Origin: a virus
Taxonomy: Duplodnaviria > Heunggongvirae > Uroviricota > Caudoviricetes
Virus record (IMG/VR): IMGVR_UViG_2698536361_000001
DNA: 33,224 nt
Strand: one strand, 5' to 3'
Positions within the stretch are counted from its first letter, which is position 1, and each line of letters opens with the position of its first letter. The notes under the pieces were generated by a model that ran no database searches, had not been told where the DNA came from, and was given only the letters and a program-made list of their open reading frames with translations. A program made the position numbers and the translations under genes. This document shows positions 1 through 8,162 of the stretch, one piece after another.

Positions 1-18
1 GCGGCATAATCCCAATGA

Positions 19-147
19 TTACTCCCTGACAGGGTTCGTAGGCCACTCAATATCAGGTGCAGTTGATGTATCAACACGGTTCAGCAGCATCCGATACTTT
101 TTCCAGGCTTCCAGCAACGGGGTTTCTTCCTCCGTTGCATATACAGC
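19..147 (-). pseudogene. tfa: 3' remnant of a tail fibre assembly (Tfa) gene: 42 codons, no start codon, in-frame TGA immediately upstream
   Basis: Minus-strand frame translates to [42 protein letters not shown], matching the conserved C-terminus of lambda-family Tfa proteins as I remember them; lies directly downstream of the stop of the 158..451 ORF. Confidence 0.55.
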
Positions 148-157
148 TCACCTTTTT

Positions 158-451
158 TCACCCACGATTAACCAACAGCCAGACCAGCAGACACGCCACC
201 ACCGGCACAGCAAAATCCATCAGGCTTGCCACATCCCATGCACGTGTATCAAAACCGCCCCACCACGGCATATTCATTCGCTTGCCATGCCCGAACATTT
301 CGATCCAGCGATATTCTGCCTGGGTGTGTTCACGCGCAATGAAGAACGTACAACCGGCTATCGCCCCGTAAGCCCAGTTCCCGGTAAAAAGACCAATCAG
401 TAGCTGCGCAGCCACAGCACAAAGCGCATGAAGGAAAGGTGTTATATCCAT
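158..451 (-). CDS. Hypothetical small membrane protein (about 97 aa from MDITPF; the ORF track extends to 466 with a non-ATG first codon)
   Basis: ORF 158..466; AGGA 5 nt upstream of the ATG at 451; three hydrophobic stretches (e.g. ALCAVAAQLLIGLF, AVPVVACLLVWLLV); no family recognised. Confidence 0.5.
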   Translation of the reverse strand: MDITPFLHALCAVAAQLLIGLFTGNWAYGAIAGCTFFIAREHTQAEYRWIEMFGHGKRMNMPWWGGFDTRAWDVASLMDFAVPVVACLLVWLLVNRG

Positions 452-460
452 TTTCATCCT

Positions 461-488
461 ACCCAATAAAACGGGGCGCTCGGCCCCT
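461..488 (-). terminator. Putative intrinsic terminator downstream of the 346-aa gene
   Basis: Minus-strand GGGGC-CGAGC-GCCCC hairpin followed by GTTTTATTGGG. Confidence 0.4.
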
Positions 489-493
489 TAATA

Positions 494-1534
494 TTATTTA
501 GACGCAAGCGCCGCCTCAATTGCAGATAATCTTTGTCTTAATTCTGCGTTTTCTTCTTCCAGTGCTGTTATTCTGTCGTCTGACTCTCTGGCTACCTGAA
601 CAAGCAAGCCAGTAACACCAGAATAATCTACTGTGTAATAACGTTCACCTTCTTCACCTTCCGATCCGCTCGCACCGTCCTGATATTTCATTGCGGAACC
701 TACAACTTCTGGGATTGCTTCCAGAGCTTCCTGTGCAATGACACCAGCATAGGGCATACCGTTTTCTTTAAGCGTGTATGTATAGCCGTTCATTTTACGG
801 ATGCGGTCGGTTGCATTATCGATCACCTGAATGTTGTCTTTCAGATCCCGGTCGGAATGCTGGTTAAATGCGGTGGCATGACATGCACCATTAACGCTTA
901 ACATATAGGTGTTATCGGTATTTTTCTGCGCATAGAACATATAAGCGCCACCATCAACACCGACTTCATAAACAACAGGACGGCTGGAGTTGCCCCACAA
1001 TTGAGCAGTAACACCAGCATAAGCGGTTCCCTGTGTGTTTAATGTCATGGTTGACCCATGATTGGCATATTTGATCTGTAATGTGTCGGTGTAATCAAAT
1101 TTAATAAGCGCGTTACTTCCACGCTTGCTGTATGACATAAGGCAGTTACCCATTTTGAGGTATCCGCTGTCACCGGGAAAAATCATCGTACCGCCATAAA
1201 GGTTGGTAAAGTCCCAGCAAATGTTTGTCCCGTTATCGTTCAGGTTAAGGCGCGCCATTGCGTTACCTGGACTGTCTATCCATTTTTTGAGGTATAGTTC
1301 GCAATACGCATCCTCAACACCTGCCGTCCTGTGAGTTGAGCGGAGTTTTCTCCCAAATATAGCTCCGCTAGTTGGCAATACCTGCTGATACCATGAAGCA
1401 GACCAGTCACCAACGATTTCATCTTTGCTGTCTACATATAATTTTGTTGCGTAGCTTCCTTGATCGTTTTTTAATTTGCTAACGTCGGATTTTAGCGTTT
1501 TGATGTCATCAGGAATTACTGTCGATGTAGCCAT
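494..1534 (-). CDS. Tail fibre / tailspike-like protein (346 aa) with a C-terminal intramolecular chaperone (peptidase S74-like) autoprocessing domain
   Basis: ORF with AGGAAGAAAA-ATG RBS; C-terminal 120 aa show the S74 pattern (HSDRDLKDNIQVID...GVIAQEALEAIPEVV...coiled coil RITALEEENAELRQRLSAIEAALASK), as in T5 pb1 and endosialidase chaperone domains. Confidence 0.7.
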   Translation of the reverse strand: MATSTVIPDDIKTLKSDVSKLKNDQGSYATKLYVDSKDEIVGDWSASWYQQVLPTSGAIFGRKLRSTHRTAGVEDAYCELYLKKWIDSPGNAMARLNLNDNGTNICWDFTNLYGGTMIFPGDSGYLKMGNCLMSYSKRGSNALIKFDYTDTLQIKYANHGSTMTLNTQGTAYAGVTAQLWGNSSRPVVYEVGVDGGAYMFYAQKNTDNTYMLSVNGACHATAFNQHSDRDLKDNIQVIDNATDRIRKMNGYTYTLKENGMPYAGVIAQEALEAIPEVVGSAMKYQDGASGSEGEEGERYYTVDYSGVTGLLVQVARESDDRITALEEENAELRQRLSAIEAALASK

Positions 1535-1543
1535 TTTTCTTCC

Positions 1544-1825
1544 TCACATCCAGCCACGAAGTTGATGCTCAACAGCAACCACGTATTCATCGAATAATGA
1601 CGATATTTGCGAATCATTAATGATGCGCACGTTTACAAAATATCCGTCTTCCTTAACACATACCGGTTCGCCATCTTCAGTCAGTTCTCCGGTTTCTTTG
1701 TACACGTTACCTATCACGTCGATAAGAATATCATCCTGCATCGACTCGTCATCATAATAGCCAATACTCTCCATAAAGGCCGAAAAGTCGGCCCTGTCTT
1801 CAAATTTGAGTGTTAAATCTTTCAT
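1544..1825 (-). CDS. Hypothetical acidic 93-aa protein, translationally coupled to stf
   Basis: ATG at 1825 overlaps the stf stop as TAATG; Asp/Glu-rich; no family recognised. Confidence 0.55.
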   Translation of the reverse strand: MKDLTLKFEDRADFSAFMESIGYYDDESMQDDILIDVIGNVYKETGELTEDGEPVCVKEDGYFVNVRIINDSQISSLFDEYVVAVEHQLRGWM

Positions 1826-4035
1826 TAGATTGACTCCCCCATTTGTGCCTCAGTTAATTCTTTATGCCAAATGCGTAAATTTTTCACATGACCGAACAGG
1901 TGTCTGTTGCCACTGGATGATTGTCCACCGATATTAATATTACCGGCAGTATAACGTTGCAATGTATGCAGAGACGGGGAGCTGCCACCTAAAATTCCAT
2001 CAACAACAACCTGCAACTGTTTATCTTCTGTAAACTTAAAGCCAGTAACAAATTTCCTTTTCTCTCTATTCCCATATGCTTTATATTCTGTTTTTGTTCC
2101 TTTGCCATTGGTGATAATTAGCCTTTTACCACGAGTGGTAAAACCAAAATACATATAACTTTCATCAGAAACTTCAGTCGTCGCCCCTGTAATTGAGATA
2201 TTAAGCAAACGCGCAGAGCCTTCTAAATTAGGCATTTCAGAATCCCAATTAACATTAACTTCCATGAGAACACTAACTGGTGGAGTTGCCCAATTGAAAG
2301 GTATAGGTATGATTACCTGGTCACTTGCTCTCGTGGCACCGACCTCTGTTGTGATGATAAAAGATGACGCGTTTAGTCCCTTTTCGAATTGAGGGGTTGT
2401 TAACATTAATTTATCGCCAGACTTGATTGATCGTTGATGTGCTCCAAACTCAAAACGCCCATACATATTTTTTGCTTCTGGTGATTTGTAGGTAAACTCA
2501 ACACGAATCCATCCATTAGACTCTCTGAATATGTTATAAGTTGCCGCCTCACCTCCAGAATAACTCAACATATCGCCAGTCTCGCAATCAATATATGCGC
2601 CAGCGGTCAGTGTGTTACTTGAGCCATCGTCGTTAACATATGATATTCTTGGACGCAACGTGATAATACCATCCCCACTTACTTTTTTAACTCTGCAGGA
2701 TAAAGTAACTGATTCATTTGCCGAAACTGAAATAACCCTGGTATATCCAGTAGAAATTAATGTCGCCCTTTCAGTTGTGGATGTTTCTTTAACGCCAAAC
2801 AAACCATAACTGAAACCATACTCATCAACTCCCGTGGTAATAGTTAAGTTAGCAGTGTCATAGTTCCACGATACTGGTGTATTCGTATAAGAAAAAGTAT
2901 TCGTTCTCTGACCTTCAATGAGCAGACCATCTTTTTCAAAACGTGGTTCATTTATCGCTGATTCAGCAAAACACCCAGACTTATCTATATACGTTGCAGT
3001 TGACGCCCTGGTAAATGAAACAACCTTTTCAGACGGCAATGCAATAACATCGTCACCAACTGTGATGCTCTTATATCCAGGAGCAAACCCGGTAATCATA
3101 TCCAGTGAATCGTTAAACGGTATCCACACCTCAGGTAACGGCTGTAAGACATATTTATACGGCTCCGCAGCCTGGCTTGCGTACTCTCTGGCTGCATCTT
3201 CGCTTGCTTTAGCTGCCGTCTGGCTTGCTGCCGATGCTTTCGCTGAGTTCGCAGCCGCTGTTTCGCTCGCCTTTGCGTTGGTTTCACTGGTTTTTGCTGC
3301 TTTTTGACTGTTAGCTGATGCAGTGGCAGAAGCAGCCGCCGCACTTGCAGAACCAGCTGCAGCACTCTCGCTTTCGGCTGCTGCAGCCTGACTACTTTTC
3401 GCCGCAGTTTCGCTGGCTTTGGCATTCGTTTCGCTGGTTTTCGCTGCCGTCTGGCTGGACTTCGCGTTGGTTTCGCTCGTCTTTGCGGCTGTCTCACTGT
3501 TTTTCGCGTTGGTTTCTGATTTTTTGGCTGCAGTCGCGGAGTTTGCCGATGCAGTCTGTGAGGCCGCTGCCGCCTGTGCGCTGTTAGCTGCGTTCGTTTC
3601 TGAGGTTTTCGCCGCGTTCTTCGATGATGCCGCTGCTGTTTCGGATTTCTTTGCCGCCGCTGCGCTCTGAGAGGCGGCTTCAGCGTTGCGTGCCGCTTCT
3701 TCCACCATTTCCTCAAAACGACGCAATGCCTCCGGCATGACATCATCTTCCGTCATGGCACCGAGAAAATCATTCAGCGTCCCCGGCTTAGAATCTTCAT
3801 ACACGGTGATGGTCCCGGCATGTGAAGGCGGAAAACCTTCAACCAGCAGGATAACGCTGTACTGGCCATACTCAACATCCATGCTGTAACGCCCGGCTTC
3901 ATCCGGATTTTCAGAGGCCACCGTGTTCACCAGTACCGTGGTGCTGTTACGCTTTGCCTTCAGTTGAATAGTGCAGTTCTGTATTGGTTTTCCCGCACCA
4001 TCTTTCAGCACACCTGAGATTTTTACTGCTGCCAT
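1825..4035 (-). CDS. stf: Side tail fibre protein Stf, chimeric: lambda-like N-terminus, Ala/Ser/Thr-rich repeat shaft, divergent C-terminal region ending in a LamG/ConA-like motif
   Basis: N-terminus MAAVKISGVLKDGAGKPIQNCTIQLKAKRNST matches lambda Stf; repeat units KTSETNAKxS; C-terminus GHVKNLRIWHKELTEAQM resembles a LamG jelly-roll end. ATG at 4035 preceded by GGAG (the ORF track starts at a GTG at 4041). Confidence 0.85.
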   Translation of the reverse strand: MAAVKISGVLKDGAGKPIQNCTIQLKAKRNSTTVLVNTVASENPDEAGRYSMDVEYGQYSVILLVEGFPPSHAGTITVYEDSKPGTLNDFLGAMTEDDVMPEALRRFEEMVEEAARNAEAASQSAAAAKKSETAAASSKNAAKTSETNAANSAQAAAASQTASANSATAAKKSETNAKNSETAAKTSETNAKSSQTAAKTSETNAKASETAAKSSQAAAAESESAAAGSASAAAASATASANSQKAAKTSETNAKASETAAANSAKASAASQTAAKASEDAAREYASQAAEPYKYVLQPLPEVWIPFNDSLDMITGFAPGYKSITVGDDVIALPSEKVVSFTRASTATYIDKSGCFAESAINEPRFEKDGLLIEGQRTNTFSYTNTPVSWNYDTANLTITTGVDEYGFSYGLFGVKETSTTERATLISTGYTRVISVSANESVTLSCRVKKVSGDGIITLRPRISYVNDDGSSNTLTAGAYIDCETGDMLSYSGGEAATYNIFRESNGWIRVEFTYKSPEAKNMYGRFEFGAHQRSIKSGDKLMLTTPQFEKGLNASSFIITTEVGATRASDQVIIPIPFNWATPPVSVLMEVNVNWDSEMPNLEGSARLLNISITGATTEVSDESYMYFGFTTRGKRLIITNGKGTKTEYKAYGNREKRKFVTGFKFTEDKQLQVVVDGILGGSSPSLHTLQRYTAGNINIGGQSSSGNRHLFGHVKNLRIWHKELTEAQMGESI

Positions 4036-4046
4036 ATCCACTCCAC

Positions 4047-4073
4047 AAAAAAGCCCGCCTGAACCGGCGGGCT
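4047..4073 (-). terminator. Intrinsic terminator between lom and stf
   Basis: Minus-strand AGCCCGCC-loop-GGCGGGCT hairpin followed by TTTTTT. Confidence 0.55.
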
Positions 4074-4099
4074 GTCATAACACTGTGTTACCTGGCTAA

Positions 4100-4699
4100 T
4101 CAGAACTTATAACCGACACCCACGATGAAACCGTCAGTGCGCCAGTCACCACTGCCGGAGCCTTCATAAGCAATATCAATGGCCACGGATTCGGTCGGGT
4201 TAAACTGCACGCCAGCTCCCCACGCCAGAGACGTGTTGCTGTGGCGACCGTCATCACTTCCGGTCAGCACATCGTGCGTTTTCCCCTTGTTGTCAGTTAC
4301 GCGGAGGTAATCCCCGGAAAAAGTCGAAACACGGCTGTAAGCCATACCCGCCATCGCATACGCGCTGAACCATTCATTCACGCGCACAGACGGCCCCGCC
4401 ATCACGCTGAACCAGCGGTTACGCACGGAATCTTTATGCCAGCGGGTATCGCTGTAACGGGTCAGCTGACGATTCTTGTATCCTGCATAACTGAATGACG
4501 TCACCAGCCCCAGCGTGTCCGTAAATTCATAACGGTATTTCACGTTAATGCCCTTCAGGTCATCACTGCCTGGCATATCAGTATGGGTCTGAAGATACCC
4601 GGCGCTTAGTGTGGACTGATGCTCTGCTGCGCTCGCTGGCGTACCAGCGGCAACCAGCCAGACTACTGCGGACAGAATAACAGCACATAATTTACGCAT
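4100..4699 (-). CDS. lom: Outer membrane protein Lom (Ail/Lom family beta-barrel)
   Basis: 199 aa, signal peptide MRKLCAVILSAVVWLVAAGTPASA, ends ...GFIVGVGYKF; matches lambda Lom; RBS GAGAGG before the ATG. Confidence 0.9.
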   Translation of the reverse strand: MRKLCAVILSAVVWLVAAGTPASAAEHQSTLSAGYLQTHTDMPGSDDLKGINVKYRYEFTDTLGLVTSFSYAGYKNRQLTRYSDTRWHKDSVRNRWFSVMAGPSVRVNEWFSAYAMAGMAYSRVSTFSGDYLRVTDNKGKTHDVLTGSDDGRHSNTSLAWGAGVQFNPTESVAIDIAYEGSGSGDWRTDGFIVGVGYKF

Positions 4700-4723
4700 A
4701 ATTACCTCTCGCTTTTCTGCAAT

Positions 4724-4747
4724 AAAAAAGGCGTCATTTCTGACGCC
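4724..4747 (-). terminator. Intrinsic terminator between J and lom
   Basis: Minus-strand GGCGTCA-GAAA-TGACGCC hairpin followed by TTTTTT. Confidence 0.55.
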
Positions 4748-4766
4748 CGTATTGGGGTTATAAAAT

Positions 4767-7700
4767 TCAGCTGATACTGATGCCTGCAGTGGCTTTCTTC
4801 ATCACAACAACCAGCAAATCGCTGATACTTGCTGTGGGATACCAACCATTTACCCACCATGCTGATACAGAAAACTCCAGTGTCATTACACCACTGCCTG
4901 CAGGCATATCAATAACACCCGTGTAAATCAGAGTATTATCCAGAGCCGTTCGGTTATAAATTTCAGCCCCGTTTTTCTTCACTATCAGGCGGCATGACGA
5001 ATAAGTATCGCTATTCTCCCGCTCATGTCTGGCACCGCAGAAAGCCACCGCTGGAATAACAATTTGCCGGTCAAACGACTGATCGTCATAAACCCTGACG
5101 GTAATAGTCCCTGATGGCCACCGCTCCGGTGCACGGGAGTCCCGGGGGAAAGCTTTGCCCACTGTTTTAACGAGATCGCCTTCAATCTGGTTCGCGGACA
5201 GTTTTCCCAGAACCCGACAGTTCTCGTTAATCGTGACATTATTGAGCGTCCCGGAGTTCGCATTCACGTTACCGCTGATATCGGCATTTTTCGCCGTCAG
5301 CCGCCCGTCCGGTGTCAGGGAAAATACCGGAGGATTGCCGCCACTGGTAATGGTGGGAGCCGTCAGATACTTCAGGAACACTTCGTTCATGAATATCTGG
5401 TTGCCCTGCGCCACAAACATCGGCGTTTCATTCCCGTTTGCCGGGTCAATAAACGCGATACGGTTAGCGGCAACCAGGAACTGGCTCAGTTTGCCTTCCT
5501 CCGTATCCTCCATACTAAGGCCAAGCCCCGCGACATAATGCCTGCCGTCTTCGGTCTGCTCAATTTTGACGCCCCACATGGCATTCCATTTATCGTTGGC
5601 GTCCTTCCACTCTTTCGAAAACTCCTCCAGTTTGCTGGCGTTATCCTCCGTCAGCTCGACTTTTTCCAGCAGCTCCTTGCCGAGATGGGATTCGGTTATC
5701 TGGCCTTTGAAAAAATCCAGGTAACCTTCCGCATCATCGCTCGGCTGACCAACAGCCTCCACGAATGCCGATTTGCCAACGGTGTTCACACTGCGGATAT
5801 AAAAGTAATAATCATGGCCCGGTTTGATATTGATACTGGCAGCTATCCAGTACAGCGCCGTACCAAGATAGCGGGCTGTGGTCTCAACCTGCCTGATATC
5901 GGTAATCCGCTTTTCCGAGAACCAGAACTCAAACTGTACCGTCGGATCATAAACCGCAAGATGCGGCGTGGCAGTTATCTGAAAATAGCCCGGCGTCAGC
6001 TCAATCCGCGACGGCGCTGCCGGTGCGGCAATCCGGAACGATACCGATGCCGGATCGCCCTGCTGTCCCCACGCATTTACCGCCCGGACCGTCAGCGTGT
6101 AACGCCCCAGCGCCAGTTGCCTGAAGCGGTATGTGGTTTCCGTCGTCCTGGCCGTGCTGACCAGCCGCTCACTGCCGTCATCCGCTGCCACGGTCAGGCG
6201 AAGCATAAAGCTCACCCCCTTCACCACCTTCGGCGTATCCCAGCGCGCCAGCACCTGATACTCCCCGCTGTCTGAGGTGACTTCGGCAGTCAGGTGCTGC
6301 ACCGCAGGCGGCGTGACACCATTCACCGTGCCGCTCTGGTCGCCGTCAAAGTGCGCCCCGTTATCCACGATGGCCTCTTTTTCCGGCACATGCTGCACGG
6401 CGGTGATGGCATACGTGCCGTCGTCGTTCTCACGGATACTCACGCAGCGGAACAGGCGCTGGCGCAGCGTCGGCAGCTTCAGCCCCCATACGCTGTATTC
6501 AGCAACACCGTCAGGAACACGGCTCACTTTTACCTTCACGCCGTCGGTGACGGACTGAACCTCCACGCTGACCGGATTGCCACTTCCGTCAACCAGACTT
6601 ATCAGCGTGGTACCGGAGGATGGCAGCGTGATTTCACGGTCGAGCGTCAGCGTCCGGGTCTGGCTGTTCACCGCCAGCACGCGCCCGCCGATGCTGATAC
6701 CCGCATAGTCATCATCACAGATTTCAATGACATCCCCCGGTACATGGCGAAGCCCTTCCGCACCCACGCTGAAGTCCACGGTCTGCGTTTCCAGCAGTTC
6801 CGTTTTAATCAGCCACAGCCCGGCGCGGTGCGCCTGCCCCCGGCTGGTACAGCCAAAGGCATCCATCTTCGTGACGTTACGACCGTAACGGGCAATGGCC
6901 TGCGTATCTTCAACAAGCTCTGTCGCCGTCTCCCAGCCGTTGTTCGGGTCAATCCAGTTCACCTCAACGGCATTATGGCGGTCCTTCAGGGCGCTGAAGC
7001 TGTAGCGGAACGGCGCGCCATCATCCGGCATCACCACATTACTGCGGTTATAGGTCCACACCTTATCTGATGGTCGGTCCTGCACGAACGTCAGCGTCTG
7101 CCCGTTCCATACCGGCATACAGCGCATCGCCGAGCAGAAATCACTGAGCACATCCCACGCCTTGCGCTGTGTGGTCAGCCAGGCATTACAGGTGATGCGC
7201 GGCTCCGTGCCACCAAAGCCATCCGGCACCGACTGGTCGCAATTCTGGCCGATGACATACAGCGCCCATTTGTCCACATCCGCCGCACCGAGACGCTTCC
7301 CCATGCCGTAGCGCGGATGGGTCAGCATATCCCACAGACACCAGGCCATGTTGTTGCTGTATGCTGGCTTAAACGTTCCGTCCCAGATACCGCTGTATTG
7401 TCGCGTCTGCGGGTTATAGTTCGACGGCACCTGCAGAATGCGCCCGCGAAGATGATAATTACGACTCACCTGCTGGCTGCCGAACTGCTCCGAGTCCACC
7501 TGTACGCTGACCAGTGCCGTGTTCGGGTAGCACTGTTTCACATCGATGATTTCGGTGTATGACGACCAGAGCGTTTTGTTCTGCAGCTGGTCTGTGGTGC
7601 TGTCCGGCGTCATCCTGCGCATCCGGATATTAAACGGGCGCGGCGGCAGGTTATCCACCACCACCGAGGCCAGATACTGCGAGGTGGTTTTGCCTTTAAT

Positions 7701-8162
7701 GGTGATGTCTTTTTCCGTCACCCAGCCACCGTTACGCTGTATCTGAACCAGCAGGCGGACTTCCGACGGATTCCGGTCCCCCTTTGAGGTGGTTTCCACC
7801 AGTGCCTGCACACCGAAGGTAAAGCGCAGACGGTCGATGTTTGCAGACGTGATGGTCCGGGTAATCGGCGTGTCGTACTTCACTTCCGTACCCAGCACCG
7901 TCTCGGAGCCGGAGGATTCAAATCCCTCCGGCGGTGTCTGCTCCTGCTCACCTGCCCGGAACACCACCGTGACACCGGAGATATTGGTATTCCCCTCACT
8001 GTCCAGCACCGGCGTACTGTTCAGCAGCACACTTTTTAATCCGTCCACCGGACCTTCAATCGGCCCTTCACTGATGGCGTCTATCACGCTCAGCATCTGG
8101 GATGATTTCAGGTTGTCCTTCGCTTCGCGCGGGGTATGCCCCTTACTGCTGCCTTTACCCAT
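4767..8162 (-). CDS. J: Tail tip host-specificity protein J (central tail fibre)
   Basis: 1131 aa, [20 protein letters not shown]..., same length and order as lambda J. Confidence 0.95.

What the first reader, a model, noticed from the sequence alone, without database searches (positions are those of the whole stretch)
1544..1825. Translationally coupled acidic 93-aa ORF between Stf and the S74-domain protein
Its start codon overlaps the stf stop (TAATG), implying stoichiometric co-expression with the fibre. It is small, strongly acidic, and not recognisable as any family. Position and coupling suggest a dedicated fibre chaperone or adaptor for the new C-terminal Stf domain.
Basis: inference. 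Interest (0 to 1): 0.45.

Follow-up and report, generated by a model that had tools for sequence, protein, structure and literature searches.

The report
Small acidic partner of tail fibres
This is a real, conserved 93-residue gene that travels with one type of phage tail-fibre end across many unrelated phages; it most likely helps that fibre fold or assemble, but nobody has tested its function.

Summary
The ORF exists as described: window 1544..1825, minus strand, 93 aa, pI 4.05. Its ATG shares one base with the stf stop codon (TAATG), and a GGAG lies 8 nt upstream.

It is a real gene. dN/dS is 0.20 over 37 alleles, and the region is present in 1068 of 5426 complete E. coli genomes.

It has no Pfam or NCBIfam match, but it belongs to PHROG 1361 (function unknown).

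Homologues sit directly after a fibre gene whose C-terminal ~440 residues match Stf 301-738. The stop and start overlap or lie within 3 nt. This holds in lambdoid, T1-like, Dhillonvirus, Nonagvirus, T5-like, rV5-like and P1-like elements, and in Aeromonas and Burkholderiales prophages. The pairing also holds when loci are sampled from the fibre or from the downstream fibre.

Within three genera, fibre alleles ending in a self-cleaving S74 chaperone domain lack the ORF. Alleles ending in the Laminin-G-like module have it. One MAG protein fuses the family domain to DUF4376, the domain of proven fibre chaperones.

Best reading: a trans-acting assembly chaperone or cap for the basic Laminin-G-like fibre end. 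Main rival: a structural adaptor that docks the second fibre. The function is untested.

The parts
1544..1825 (-). The 93-aa acidic ORF, a PHROG 1361 member and the subject of the finding
   Evidence: The AF2 model has mean pLDDT 87 and a beta-alpha-alpha-beta4-alpha layout with a less confident C-terminal tail.
1823..1827 (-). TAATG junction: the stf stop TAA and the ORF start ATG share base 1825
   Evidence: Equivalent junctions occur in the related loci: TAATG, ATGA and TAAATG, plus TAAAATG, TAAAAATG and TAAAGTG and TAAGTG in AKFV33.
1834..1840 (-). Shine-Dalgarno-like GGGGGAG inside the last stf codons, 8 nt before the ATG
   Evidence: Read from the sequence. AGGAG or GGGAG lies at the same place in the other lineages.
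1825..4041 (-). stf, the side tail fibre gene (738 aa) with a lambda-type N-terminus (PF08400)
1828..3141 (-). Stf residues 301-738: the C-terminal module that always accompanies the small ORF. It has a conserved head (301-400), a variable GTA-spike-fibre-like part (374-572) and a basic Laminin_G_3-like end (628-738).
1535..1543 (-). 9-nt spacer (GGAAGAAAA; the GAGGAAG Shine-Dalgarno sequence begins in the ORF's TGA stop codon) between the small ORF and the S74 fibre gene
   Evidence: The gap is 9 nt in nearly all related loci.
494..1534 (-). Second fibre ('B'), 346 aa, with a C-terminal S74 intramolecular chaperone domain
1439..1534 (-). N-terminal 32 residues of fibre B (MATSTVIPDDIKTLK...). 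This motif is conserved even where the rest of B is unrelated, and it is a candidate docking peptide.
473..487 (-). GC-rich hairpin followed by a T run: terminator-like site closing the stf / small ORF / fibre B unit

Best explanation
The ORF encodes an accessory protein of the upstream fibre, tied to the fibre's C-terminal module (Stf residues 301-738). It is transcribed with stf and fibre B as one unit. It is translated from a start that overlaps the stf stop and has its own Shine-Dalgarno sequence. The most likely mechanism is that the small acidic alpha/beta protein binds the basic Laminin-G-like end of the newly made fibre chains. There it would act in trans as a folding and trimerisation chaperone, possibly staying on for a time as a cap. 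That is the job which other alleles of the same fibres perform in cis with a self-cleaving S74 domain. What is shown: the gene is real, it is under purifying selection, and it is invariably paired with this fibre module. What is inferred: binding to the Laminin-G-like end, chaperone activity, and absence from or transient presence on the virion.
For: (1) Sampling from the ORF: in 90 of 91 loci a long fibre ORF ends within 0-4 nt overlap of the family ORF start. In 90 of those 91 loci that fibre aligns to the C-terminal part of Stf (L090 gave no such match); most alignments run to residue 738.
(2) Sampling from the fibre motif in one genome per species: the next ORF is a family member in E. ruysiae (two prophages), Silvania, Buttiauxella, Leclercia (two), Aeromonas (three), a contig binned as Collinsella, and a Noviherbaspirillum MAG (HMM E 1e-43 to 1e-5, except L108, read by eye). 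Two alphaproteobacterial MAGs carry small acidic ORFs with a VWA/AWA motif.
(3) The ORF is kept where no second fibre follows: phage 21, ev243, 4A7, rV5-like nimi, Aeromonas and L117.
(4) A P1-like element has two tandem fibre-plus-small-ORF pairs, so each fibre of this type has its own copy.
(5) Allele contrasts within genera. rV5 gp41 and nimi_170 are 91% identical over residues 1-1049; rV5 then ends in an S74 domain with no small ORF, while nimi ends in the module plus the ORF. Nonagvirus ChristophMerian (S74 end, no ORF) contrasts with BRET. In Tequintavirus, DT57C LtfA ends in an S74 domain and the neighbouring gene numbers are adjacent (gp108/gp107; PMC4728585, PMC10713586), and SP3 has a single long fibre gene with no small ORF beside it (its C-terminus was not examined). 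These contrast with IrisVonRoten, AKFV33, SP15 and Lindwurm.
(6) In L111 the family domain (hhalign probability 96%, E 1.6e-9) is fused to DUF4376 (E 4.9e-24). DUF4376 is the domain of the experimentally shown fibre chaperones V22 gp27 and A5 gp9 (PMC7289586, PMC10579305).
(7) Charge: the 30 aligned family sequences have pI 4.05-4.74. The last 111 fibre residues have a median net charge of +5 and median pI 9.4, and in the window +9 and pI 10.05.
(8) There is a terminator-like site only after fibre B, and promoter-like matches are no more frequent than in shuffled sequence.
Against: There is no experiment on any family member. The ORF shows no homology to known chaperones (Pfam, NCBIfam and PDB sequence searches negative; fold search without a meaningful match). 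Comparison with the N-terminus of V22 gp27 is not significant. The DUF4376 fusion is a single case. The ORF is nearly invariant while the fibre's receptor-binding part varies from 15 to 100% identity. This is unlike Tfa or gp38, which co-vary with fibre tips, so if it binds the fibre it must bind the conserved parts. The conserved 9-12 nt link to a second fibre with a conserved N-terminal peptide fits an adaptor role just as well. The published virion mass spectrometry that was read looked only at gel bands of 19 kDa and above, so it says nothing about a 10.6-kDa protein.
Confidence: 0.55

Rival explanations
1. The protein is a structural adaptor for a branched fibre. It stays on fibre A and captures the conserved N-terminal peptide of fibre B, so that B, which has no tail-attachment domain of its own, is carried on A.
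For: In lambdoid, Drexlerviridae, Dhillonvirus, Nonagvirus (BRET), JenP-like and T5-like loci the ORF is followed after 2-12 nt (mostly 9) by a fibre. That fibre starts M[AVT]T.T.IP.DI..LK even when the rest of it differs. A second ORF subfamily (Leclercia, Silvania, P1-like) goes with a different N-terminal motif, MA.R.DSI.LT. Sampling from fibre B gave the ORF in 4 of 4 loci. Where the B body is part of a single-chain fibre (SP3, ChristophMerian), the module, the ORF and the N-terminal peptide are all missing. Fibres A and B are both virion proteins in SIA3lw (PMC12752171). Branched A/B fibres are established in T5-like phages (PMC4728585). The ORF, Stf 301-400 and B 1-32 are the conserved islands in a mosaic region.
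Against: The ORF persists, with its conserved C-terminal P.R.WA tail, in lineages that have no fibre B (phage 21, ev243, rV5-like, Aeromonas, L117, and the second copy in the P1-like element). DT57C builds a branched LtfA/LtfB fibre with no such protein. The ORF is translationally linked to A, not to B. There is no evidence that it is in virions.
Confidence: 0.25
2. The protein has a function unrelated to the fibre, for example an acidic DNA-mimic anti-restriction protein, an anti-defence factor or a lysogenic-conversion 'moron' that happens to lie in the variable region after stf.
For: It is small and very acidic. The region after lambdoid fibre genes often carries accessory genes; here lom lies upstream and a membrane protein downstream.
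Against: Its position against a fibre stop codon is conserved in virulent and temperate phages of unrelated families and in several bacterial orders. Its presence follows the fibre's C-terminal allele within genera. It has no promoter of its own above chance. It gives no PADLOC, Pfam or NCBIfam hit. The predicted fold is a compact alpha/beta domain; that this is unlike an elongated DNA mimic is my own judgement, not a test.
Confidence: 0.04
3. The ORF is a chance open frame or an annotation artefact.
For: It is short, and many random ORFs of similar size exist in the window.
Against: dN/dS is 0.20 in this frame. Four of the other five frames give 0.83-2.0; one antisense frame gives 0.27, read here as the mirror effect of shared wobble positions. 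It has full-length homologues down to about 25% identity with conserved motifs. Forty-nine further clusters at 50% identity were found in an exhaustive search (51 hits in all, two judged spurious). The AF2 model is confident.
Confidence: 0.01

Closest known systems
Lambda Tfa, Mu Tfa and P2 G tail fibre assembly proteins (Pfam Caudo_TAP, PF02413)
   Same: They are encoded directly after the side or lateral fibre gene and act on the fibre's C-terminal end. In lambda itself Tfa occupies the position this ORF has here.
   Different: No sequence similarity was found (Pfam scan at E up to 1 gave nothing). The ORF is about half the size. It does not co-vary with the receptor-binding part of the fibre. 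From my own knowledge, not tested here: Tfa proteins are about 175-195 aa, and Mu Tfa stays on the fibre tip.
DUF4376-type intermolecular fibre chaperones (Alteromonas phages V22 gp27 and A5 gp9)
   Same: They are encoded just after the fibre. V22 gp27 is required for a functional receptor-binding fibre and is not a stable part of it (PMC7289586; the A5 fibre works without its chaperone, PMC10579305). One MAG protein (L111) joins this ORF's family domain to DUF4376, directly after a fibre of the same type.
   Different: The window protein has no DUF4376 domain. The N-terminus of V22 gp27 shows no significant similarity to the family profile (probability 2%). Only one fusion was found.
Peptidase_S74 intramolecular chaperone domain (PF13884), as in T5 pb1, K1F endosialidase and DT57C LtfA/LtfB
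   Same: It occupies the same place at the end of otherwise near-identical fibres. Alleles carry either an S74 end or the Laminin-G-like module plus this ORF. This suggests equivalent roles in fibre maturation.
   Different: S74 acts in cis and is cleaved off, whereas this is a separate polypeptide. There is no homology. The equivalence is inferred from allele distribution only.
Branched lateral fibres of T5-like phages (DT57C LtfA/LtfB) and phiEco32 gp14/gp15
   Same: Both are two-fibre systems in which the second fibre lacks a tail-attachment domain and rides on the first (PMC4728585, PMC10713586). The window has the same A-then-B gene order.
   Different: In DT57C no small gene lies between ltfA and ltfB, to judge from the adjacent gene numbers, and LtfA ends in an S74 domain. 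Fibre-B relatives outside the A/ORF/B arrangement matched only from residue 27 onward of the IrisVonRoten fibre-B query; DT57C and phiEco32 themselves were not aligned here.
T4 gp57A
   Same: It is a small acidic protein needed for fibre assembly (my own knowledge).
   Different: From my own knowledge, gp57A is an unlinked, helical, general chaperone. This ORF is predicted alpha/beta and is strictly linked to one fibre module. No sequence comparison beyond the negative Pfam and PDB searches was made.

Membership tests
PHROG 1361 (phage protein family of unknown function) | Significant full-length match to the family profile | tested here: met
   E 2.5e-46, residues 1-93 against profile positions 1-92 of 92.
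Caudo_TAP / lambda-type Tfa tail fibre assembly proteins | Match to Pfam PF02413 or to any Tfa-like model | tested here: not met
   No Pfam family at E up to 1 and no NCBIfam family at E up to 0.1.
DUF4376 intermolecular fibre chaperones | Presence of the DUF4376 domain (PF14301) | tested here: not met
   The domain is absent from the window protein. It is present only in the fused relative L111 (E 4.9e-24). The family profile against V22 gp27 is not significant.
Tail fibre chaperone (functional class) | Encoded immediately downstream of, and co-transcribed with, the fibre it serves | tested here: met
   1-nt overlap in the window. Overlap of 0-4 nt in 90 of 91 loci and gaps of 0-2 nt in four more. 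The only terminator-like site comes after fibre B.
Tail fibre chaperone (functional class) | Presence follows the type of fibre C-terminus | tested here: met
   Three within-genus allele contrasts (19, 39). Sampling from the fibre motif also gave the pairing.
Tail fibre chaperone (functional class) | Required for folding or trimerisation of the fibre, and binds its C-terminal part | not testable with these tools
Only charge complementarity was found.
Tail fibre chaperone (functional class) | Absent from, or only transiently on, the mature virion | not tested
   The published virion proteomes that were read covered gel bands of 19 kDa and above, or only four bands.
Fibre-to-fibre adaptor (branched fibre connector) | Always accompanied by a second fibre that needs docking | tested here: not met
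   No second fibre follows in phage 21, ev243, 4A7, nimi, Aeromonas or L117, nor after the second copy in the P1-like element.
Fibre-to-fibre adaptor (branched fibre connector) | Stable virion component that contacts both fibres | not testable with these tools
Anti-phage defence or known defence-associated proteins | Match to a PADLOC model | tested here: not met
   No hit at E up to 0.1.

The most novel reading that the evidence does not exclude
The small protein is the socket of a portable plug-and-socket junction. It would sit on the basic Laminin-G-like end of fibre A and bind the conserved N-terminal peptide of fibre B. Any A and any B could then be combined without covalent linkage. That would explain why the ORF, Stf 301-400 and B 1-32 are the conserved islands in a region where both receptor-binding parts are freely shuffled across at least six phage groups. 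In lineages without B it would keep only a chaperone or cap role.
Probability: 0.2. Interest if true: 0.7.

Novelty: new variant of a known kind. Interest (0 to 1): 0.42.

Why it matters
Fibre accessory proteins decide whether swapped or engineered receptor-binding fibres fold and work. This family accompanies a fibre module present in about a fifth of complete E. coli genomes and in T1-, T5-, rV5- and lambda-like phages used for therapy, typing and DNA delivery. It is annotated only as hypothetical and is ignored in published fibre models. If it is a chaperone, it must be co-transferred when such fibres are grafted. If it is an adaptor, it defines a simple, reusable way to hang a second receptor-binding protein on a fibre. 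The comparative data also point to ready test phages (BASEL IrisVonRoten and KarlJaspers) in which a clean deletion should have an O-antigen-dependent phenotype.

Tried and rejected
- **Co-folding the ORF with the fibre B N-terminus.** No interface prediction was therefore possible.
- **AF2 of Stf 556-738 without an alignment.** It gave pLDDT 31 and is unusable. It was not sent to fold search.
- **Fold search of the ORF model.** The best PDB matches were generic two-layer alpha/beta folds (NusG N-terminal domain, ribosomal S10, PII) with TM 0.3-0.48 and none at E below 1e-3, so I judged them uninformative. BFVD gave only uncharacterised phage proteins.
- **PDB sequence searches.** The ORF gave only chance-level hits (GAPDH, E 0.04). 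The Stf module gave none.
- **Two of the three large homologue searches.** The first profile search mostly returned near-identical E. coli proteins, because only 120 rows are listed. The divergent-profile search added mainly Aeromonas stand-alone proteins. Neither showed a further DUF4376 fusion among the listed rows.
- **Profile-based locus search with the ORF alignment.** It failed because no stretch was conserved enough.
- **Giant Ig-repeat surface proteins P0161 and P0168.** They hit residues 33-63 repeatedly. I judged this spurious after a Pfam scan.
- **Stop-codon read-through idea.** The ORF and fibre B are in the same frame in the window (9-nt gap). I dropped the idea because gaps of 2, 10, 11 and 12 nt occur elsewhere.
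- **Literature.** I found no paper that characterises the family. The BASEL, DT57C, AKFV33, rV5, SIA3lw and base-editing (lambda STF chimera) papers do not address it.
- **RcGTA head-spike genes.** I checked them because Stf 374-572 matches that domain. The passages read mention no small partner gene.

Full report
**Observation**

The window is the late region of a lambda-like E. coli prophage, read on the minus strand. The order is J (4767..8162), lom (4100..4699), stf (1825..4041, 738 aa), the 93-aa ORF (1544..1825), a 346-aa protein with a C-terminal Peptidase_S74 domain (494..1534), a hairpin with a T run (473..487), and a 102-aa membrane protein (158..466).

GGAG lies 8 nt upstream, inside the last stf codons. 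The product has 22 acidic and 7 basic residues and a pI of 4.05.

It has no Pfam or NCBIfam match. It does match PHROG 1361 end to end (E 2.5e-46), a family of unknown function.

**The gene is real**

- Across 81 close loci there are 37 nucleotide alleles. dN/dS is 0.20 in the ORF's frame. Four of the other five frames give 0.83-2.0; one antisense frame gives 0.27, which I read as the mirror effect of shared wobble positions. Variable sites number 10/13/27 at codon positions 1/2/3.
- The 601-base query spanning the ORF and its flanks (window 1400-2000) matches in 1068 of 5426 complete E. coli genomes, 419 of them over at least 80% of the query. In the twelve records listed, the ORF is annotated as a hypothetical protein.
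- An exhaustive search of 1.84 billion representative proteins found only 51 clusters at 50% identity, so the family is small and phage-restricted. Two of those hits are giant Ig-repeat proteins that I judged spurious.
- Family members keep their length and the motifs MKDL.LKF, D.IG, GY.VN.R and a C-terminal P.R.WA.
- AF2 with an 18-sequence alignment gives a confident compact fold (pLDDT 87, pTM 0.73): beta-alpha-alpha-beta4-alpha, with a less confident tail at residues 82-93.
- The model has no meaningful PDB neighbour (best TM 0.3-0.48, none at E below 1e-3). It has only uncharacterised phage neighbours in BFVD.

**Pairing with the fibre, tested in three directions**

*Sampling from the ORF.* tblastn finds it in 181 phage records: lambdoid, Drexlerviridae, Dhillonvirus, T5-like and rV5-like phages, plus some mislabelled records. 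In nearly all of the 60 rows shown (a spread sample) the match overlaps an annotated fibre gene. In 91 fetched loci, a long upstream ORF ends with 0-4 nt overlap of the family start in 90 cases, through TAATG, ATGA or TAAATG junctions. In 90 of the 91, that upstream protein aligns to the C-terminal part of Stf (L090 gave no such match), and most alignments run to residue 738. In rV5-like nimi the match is Stf 302-738 against residues 1060-1478 of a 1479-aa fibre.

*Sampling from the fibre.* I used the conserved head of the module (QPLPDVWIPF...PRFE.DGLLIEGQRTN) to scan one genome per species. The ORF directly after the fibre is a family member (overlap 1 or 4 nt where the fibre is intact) in E. 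ruysiae (two prophages), Silvania, Buttiauxella, Leclercia (two), Aeromonas rivipollensis (three prophages), a contig binned as Collinsella, and a Noviherbaspirillum MAG. Ten of these score against the family HMM (E 1e-43 to 1e-5); the L108 member was recognised by eye. Two alphaproteobacterial MAGs have small acidic ORFs at the same spot carrying a VWA or AWA motif. The other three loci are a fragment, a case with no ORF found, and a different arrangement.

*Sampling from the downstream fibre.* AKFV33, BRET, SP15 and Lindwurm all carry the ORF between the two fibres (HMM E 1e-22 to 1e-25), with 0-2 nt between the fibre stop and the ORF start.

**What the ORF does and does not follow**

Stf residues 1-300 are lambda-specific. 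Residues 301-400 are 58-71% identical across all phage groups except rV5-like nimi (33%). Residues 401-680 vary from 15 to 100%. The last 58 residues are about 40-70% identical and carry the RHLFGH.RN.RIWH..LT signature.

Pfam gives a just-sub-threshold Laminin_G_3 match at 628-733 (26.3 bits against a cutoff of 27.6). NCBIfam gives a GTA head-spike-fibre domain at 374-572 (E 4.8e-18). That domain belongs to a capsule-binding fibre of the Rhodobacter gene transfer agent (PMC5026251).

The ORF stays 94-100% identical next to at least 12 Stf receptor-binding types and 6 types of downstream fibre. It is therefore not allele-specific. If it touches the fibre, it touches the conserved parts.

**Evidence bearing on mechanism**

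- *Presence without a second fibre.* The ORF is kept where nothing fibre-like follows: phage 21, ev243 and 4A7 (a membrane protein is next), nimi, Aeromonas and L117.
- *One copy per fibre.* A P1-like element has fibre / small ORF / fibre / small ORF. Both fibres end in the same signature and both small ORFs are family members.
- *Allele contrasts within genera.* rV5 gp41 and nimi_170 are 91% identical to residue 1049. rV5 then ends in an S74 domain and has no small ORF, while nimi ends in the module and has it. ChristophMerian has a single-chain fibre with an S74 end and no ORF, while BRET of the same genus has the module, the ORF and a second fibre. DT57C LtfA and LtfB both end in S74 domains and have adjacent gene numbers, and SP3 has a single long fibre gene with no small ORF beside it, whereas IrisVonRoten, AKFV33, SP15 and Lindwurm have the module and the ORF. 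A cis chaperone and 'module plus ORF' thus replace each other.
- *Domain fusion.* In the Noviherbaspirillum MAG the protein after the fibre is 204 aa. Residues 1-83 match the family profile (hhalign probability 96%, E 1.6e-9). Residues 90-195 are DUF4376 (E 4.9e-24). DUF4376 marks V22 gp27 and A5 gp9. V22 gp27 is needed for a functional fibre and is not part of the final complex, and both were proposed to act as transient caps (PMC7289586, PMC10579305).
- *Charge.* The family is uniformly acidic (pI 4.05-4.74 in the 30 aligned sequences). The last 111 residues of the fibres are basic: median net charge +5 and median pI 9.4 over 35 distinct sequences, and +9 and pI 10.05 in the window.

**The rival: an adaptor for a branched fibre**

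In six phage groups the ORF is followed after 2-12 nt (mostly 9) by a fibre that begins M[AVT]T.T.IP.DI..LK, whatever its body. Bodies include the 346-aa S74 type, a 234-aa type, 224-aa S74 types in T1-like phages, and 574-586-aa T-shaped fibres in T5-like phages.

A second ORF subfamily goes with a different N-terminal motif. Relatives of the fibre-B body outside this arrangement match only from residue 27 onward; in the two checked (SP3, ChristophMerian) that part lies inside a single-chain fibre, without the first ~26 residues, the module or the ORF.

Both fibres are virion proteins in SIA3lw. This fits a junction cassette in which the ORF could be the connector. Against it stand the lineages without a second fibre and DT57C's branched fibre without such a protein. 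A dual role is possible.

**What could not be done**

- The single-sequence model of the Laminin-G-like end failed, with pLDDT 31.
- The published virion proteomes that were read did not look below 19 kDa.
- No paper found addresses the family. The 2025 BASEL paper says that Gp24 of IrisVonRoten connects to a long proximal fibre 'Gp23', but in the GenBank record bas32_0023 is the 92-aa protein and bas32_0022 is the long fibre.

**Verdict**

This is an ordinary member of a widespread but uncharacterised family of fibre accessory proteins. My confidence that it serves the upstream fibre's C-terminal module is about 0.85. For the trans chaperone or cap mechanism it is about 0.55, and for the adaptor role about 0.25.

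The protein is unrelated in sequence, and apparently in fold, to Tfa, DUF4376 proteins and S74 domains (no match in the Pfam, NCBIfam and PDB searches); for gp38 and gp57A this rests only on the negative database searches. I therefore rate it a new variant of a known kind, of moderate interest.

Noticed in passing
window 1439-1534 (-), N-terminus of the S74 protein: The first 15-32 residues (MATSTVIPDDIKTLK...) are conserved in downstream fibres of six phage groups, even when the rest of the protein is unrelated. Homologous fibre bodies that are part of single-chain fibres lack them. This looks like a docking peptide.
   Followed up: partly
window 158-466 (-): A 102-aa two-TM membrane protein (phrog_1443; two TM helices per the phage 21 record's annotation of its homologue) recurs right after the fibre cassette in phage 21, ev243, 4A7, E. 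ruysiae and a P1-like element (L118 5398-5685). It seems to travel with the cassette; its function is unknown.
   Followed up: no
window 2326-2922 (-), Stf residues 374-572: The variable middle of the Stf module matches NCBIfam NF048003, the head-spike fibre domain of the Rhodobacter gene transfer agent, which binds capsule. PGAP names the E. coli protein accordingly.
   Followed up: partly
L118-L120 (P1-like contigs), 1-5288: Two tandem pairs of fibre plus small family ORF. The second fibre (980 aa) starts 10 nt after the first small ORF and has its own small ORF.
   Followed up: yes
L111 5891-6505 (Noviherbaspirillum MAG): A 204-aa protein fuses the small-ORF family domain to DUF4376, directly after a fibre of the same type. 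It is the only such fusion found.
   Followed up: partly
L003 5270-5947 (KarlJaspers bas06_0035) and L095 3194-3868 (swan01): A gene annotated 'putative lateral tail fiber chaperone' (or 'hypothetical protein') is a short fibre of the downstream type, with the conserved N-terminal motif and a C-terminus that resembles an S74 domain by eye (no Pfam scan was run on it). The annotation is probably wrong.
   Followed up: partly
L004 5001-5279 (IrisVonRoten bas32_0023): The 2025 BASEL paper calls 'Gp23' the long proximal fibre that carries Gp24. In the GenBank record gene 0023 is the 92-aa small protein and 0022 is the long fibre. This is either a numbering slip or the small protein was overlooked.
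   Followed up: no
L092 2417-4833 (phage 4A7): The stf gene is interrupted by an insertion with three transposase CDS. The small ORF and the membrane protein remain intact downstream.
   Followed up: no
window 3326-3499 (-): There are imperfect 21- and 42-nt tandem repeats in the alanine- and serine-rich Stf shaft (repeats of the K.SETNAK type). This is ordinary for lambda-type fibres.
   Followed up: no
L100 (contig binned as Collinsella sp. MAG): A 2.8-kb contig carrying an E. coli-type fibre end, the small ORF (about 95% identical) and the 234-aa downstream fibre is assigned to an actinobacterial MAG. This is probably a binning error.
   Followed up: no
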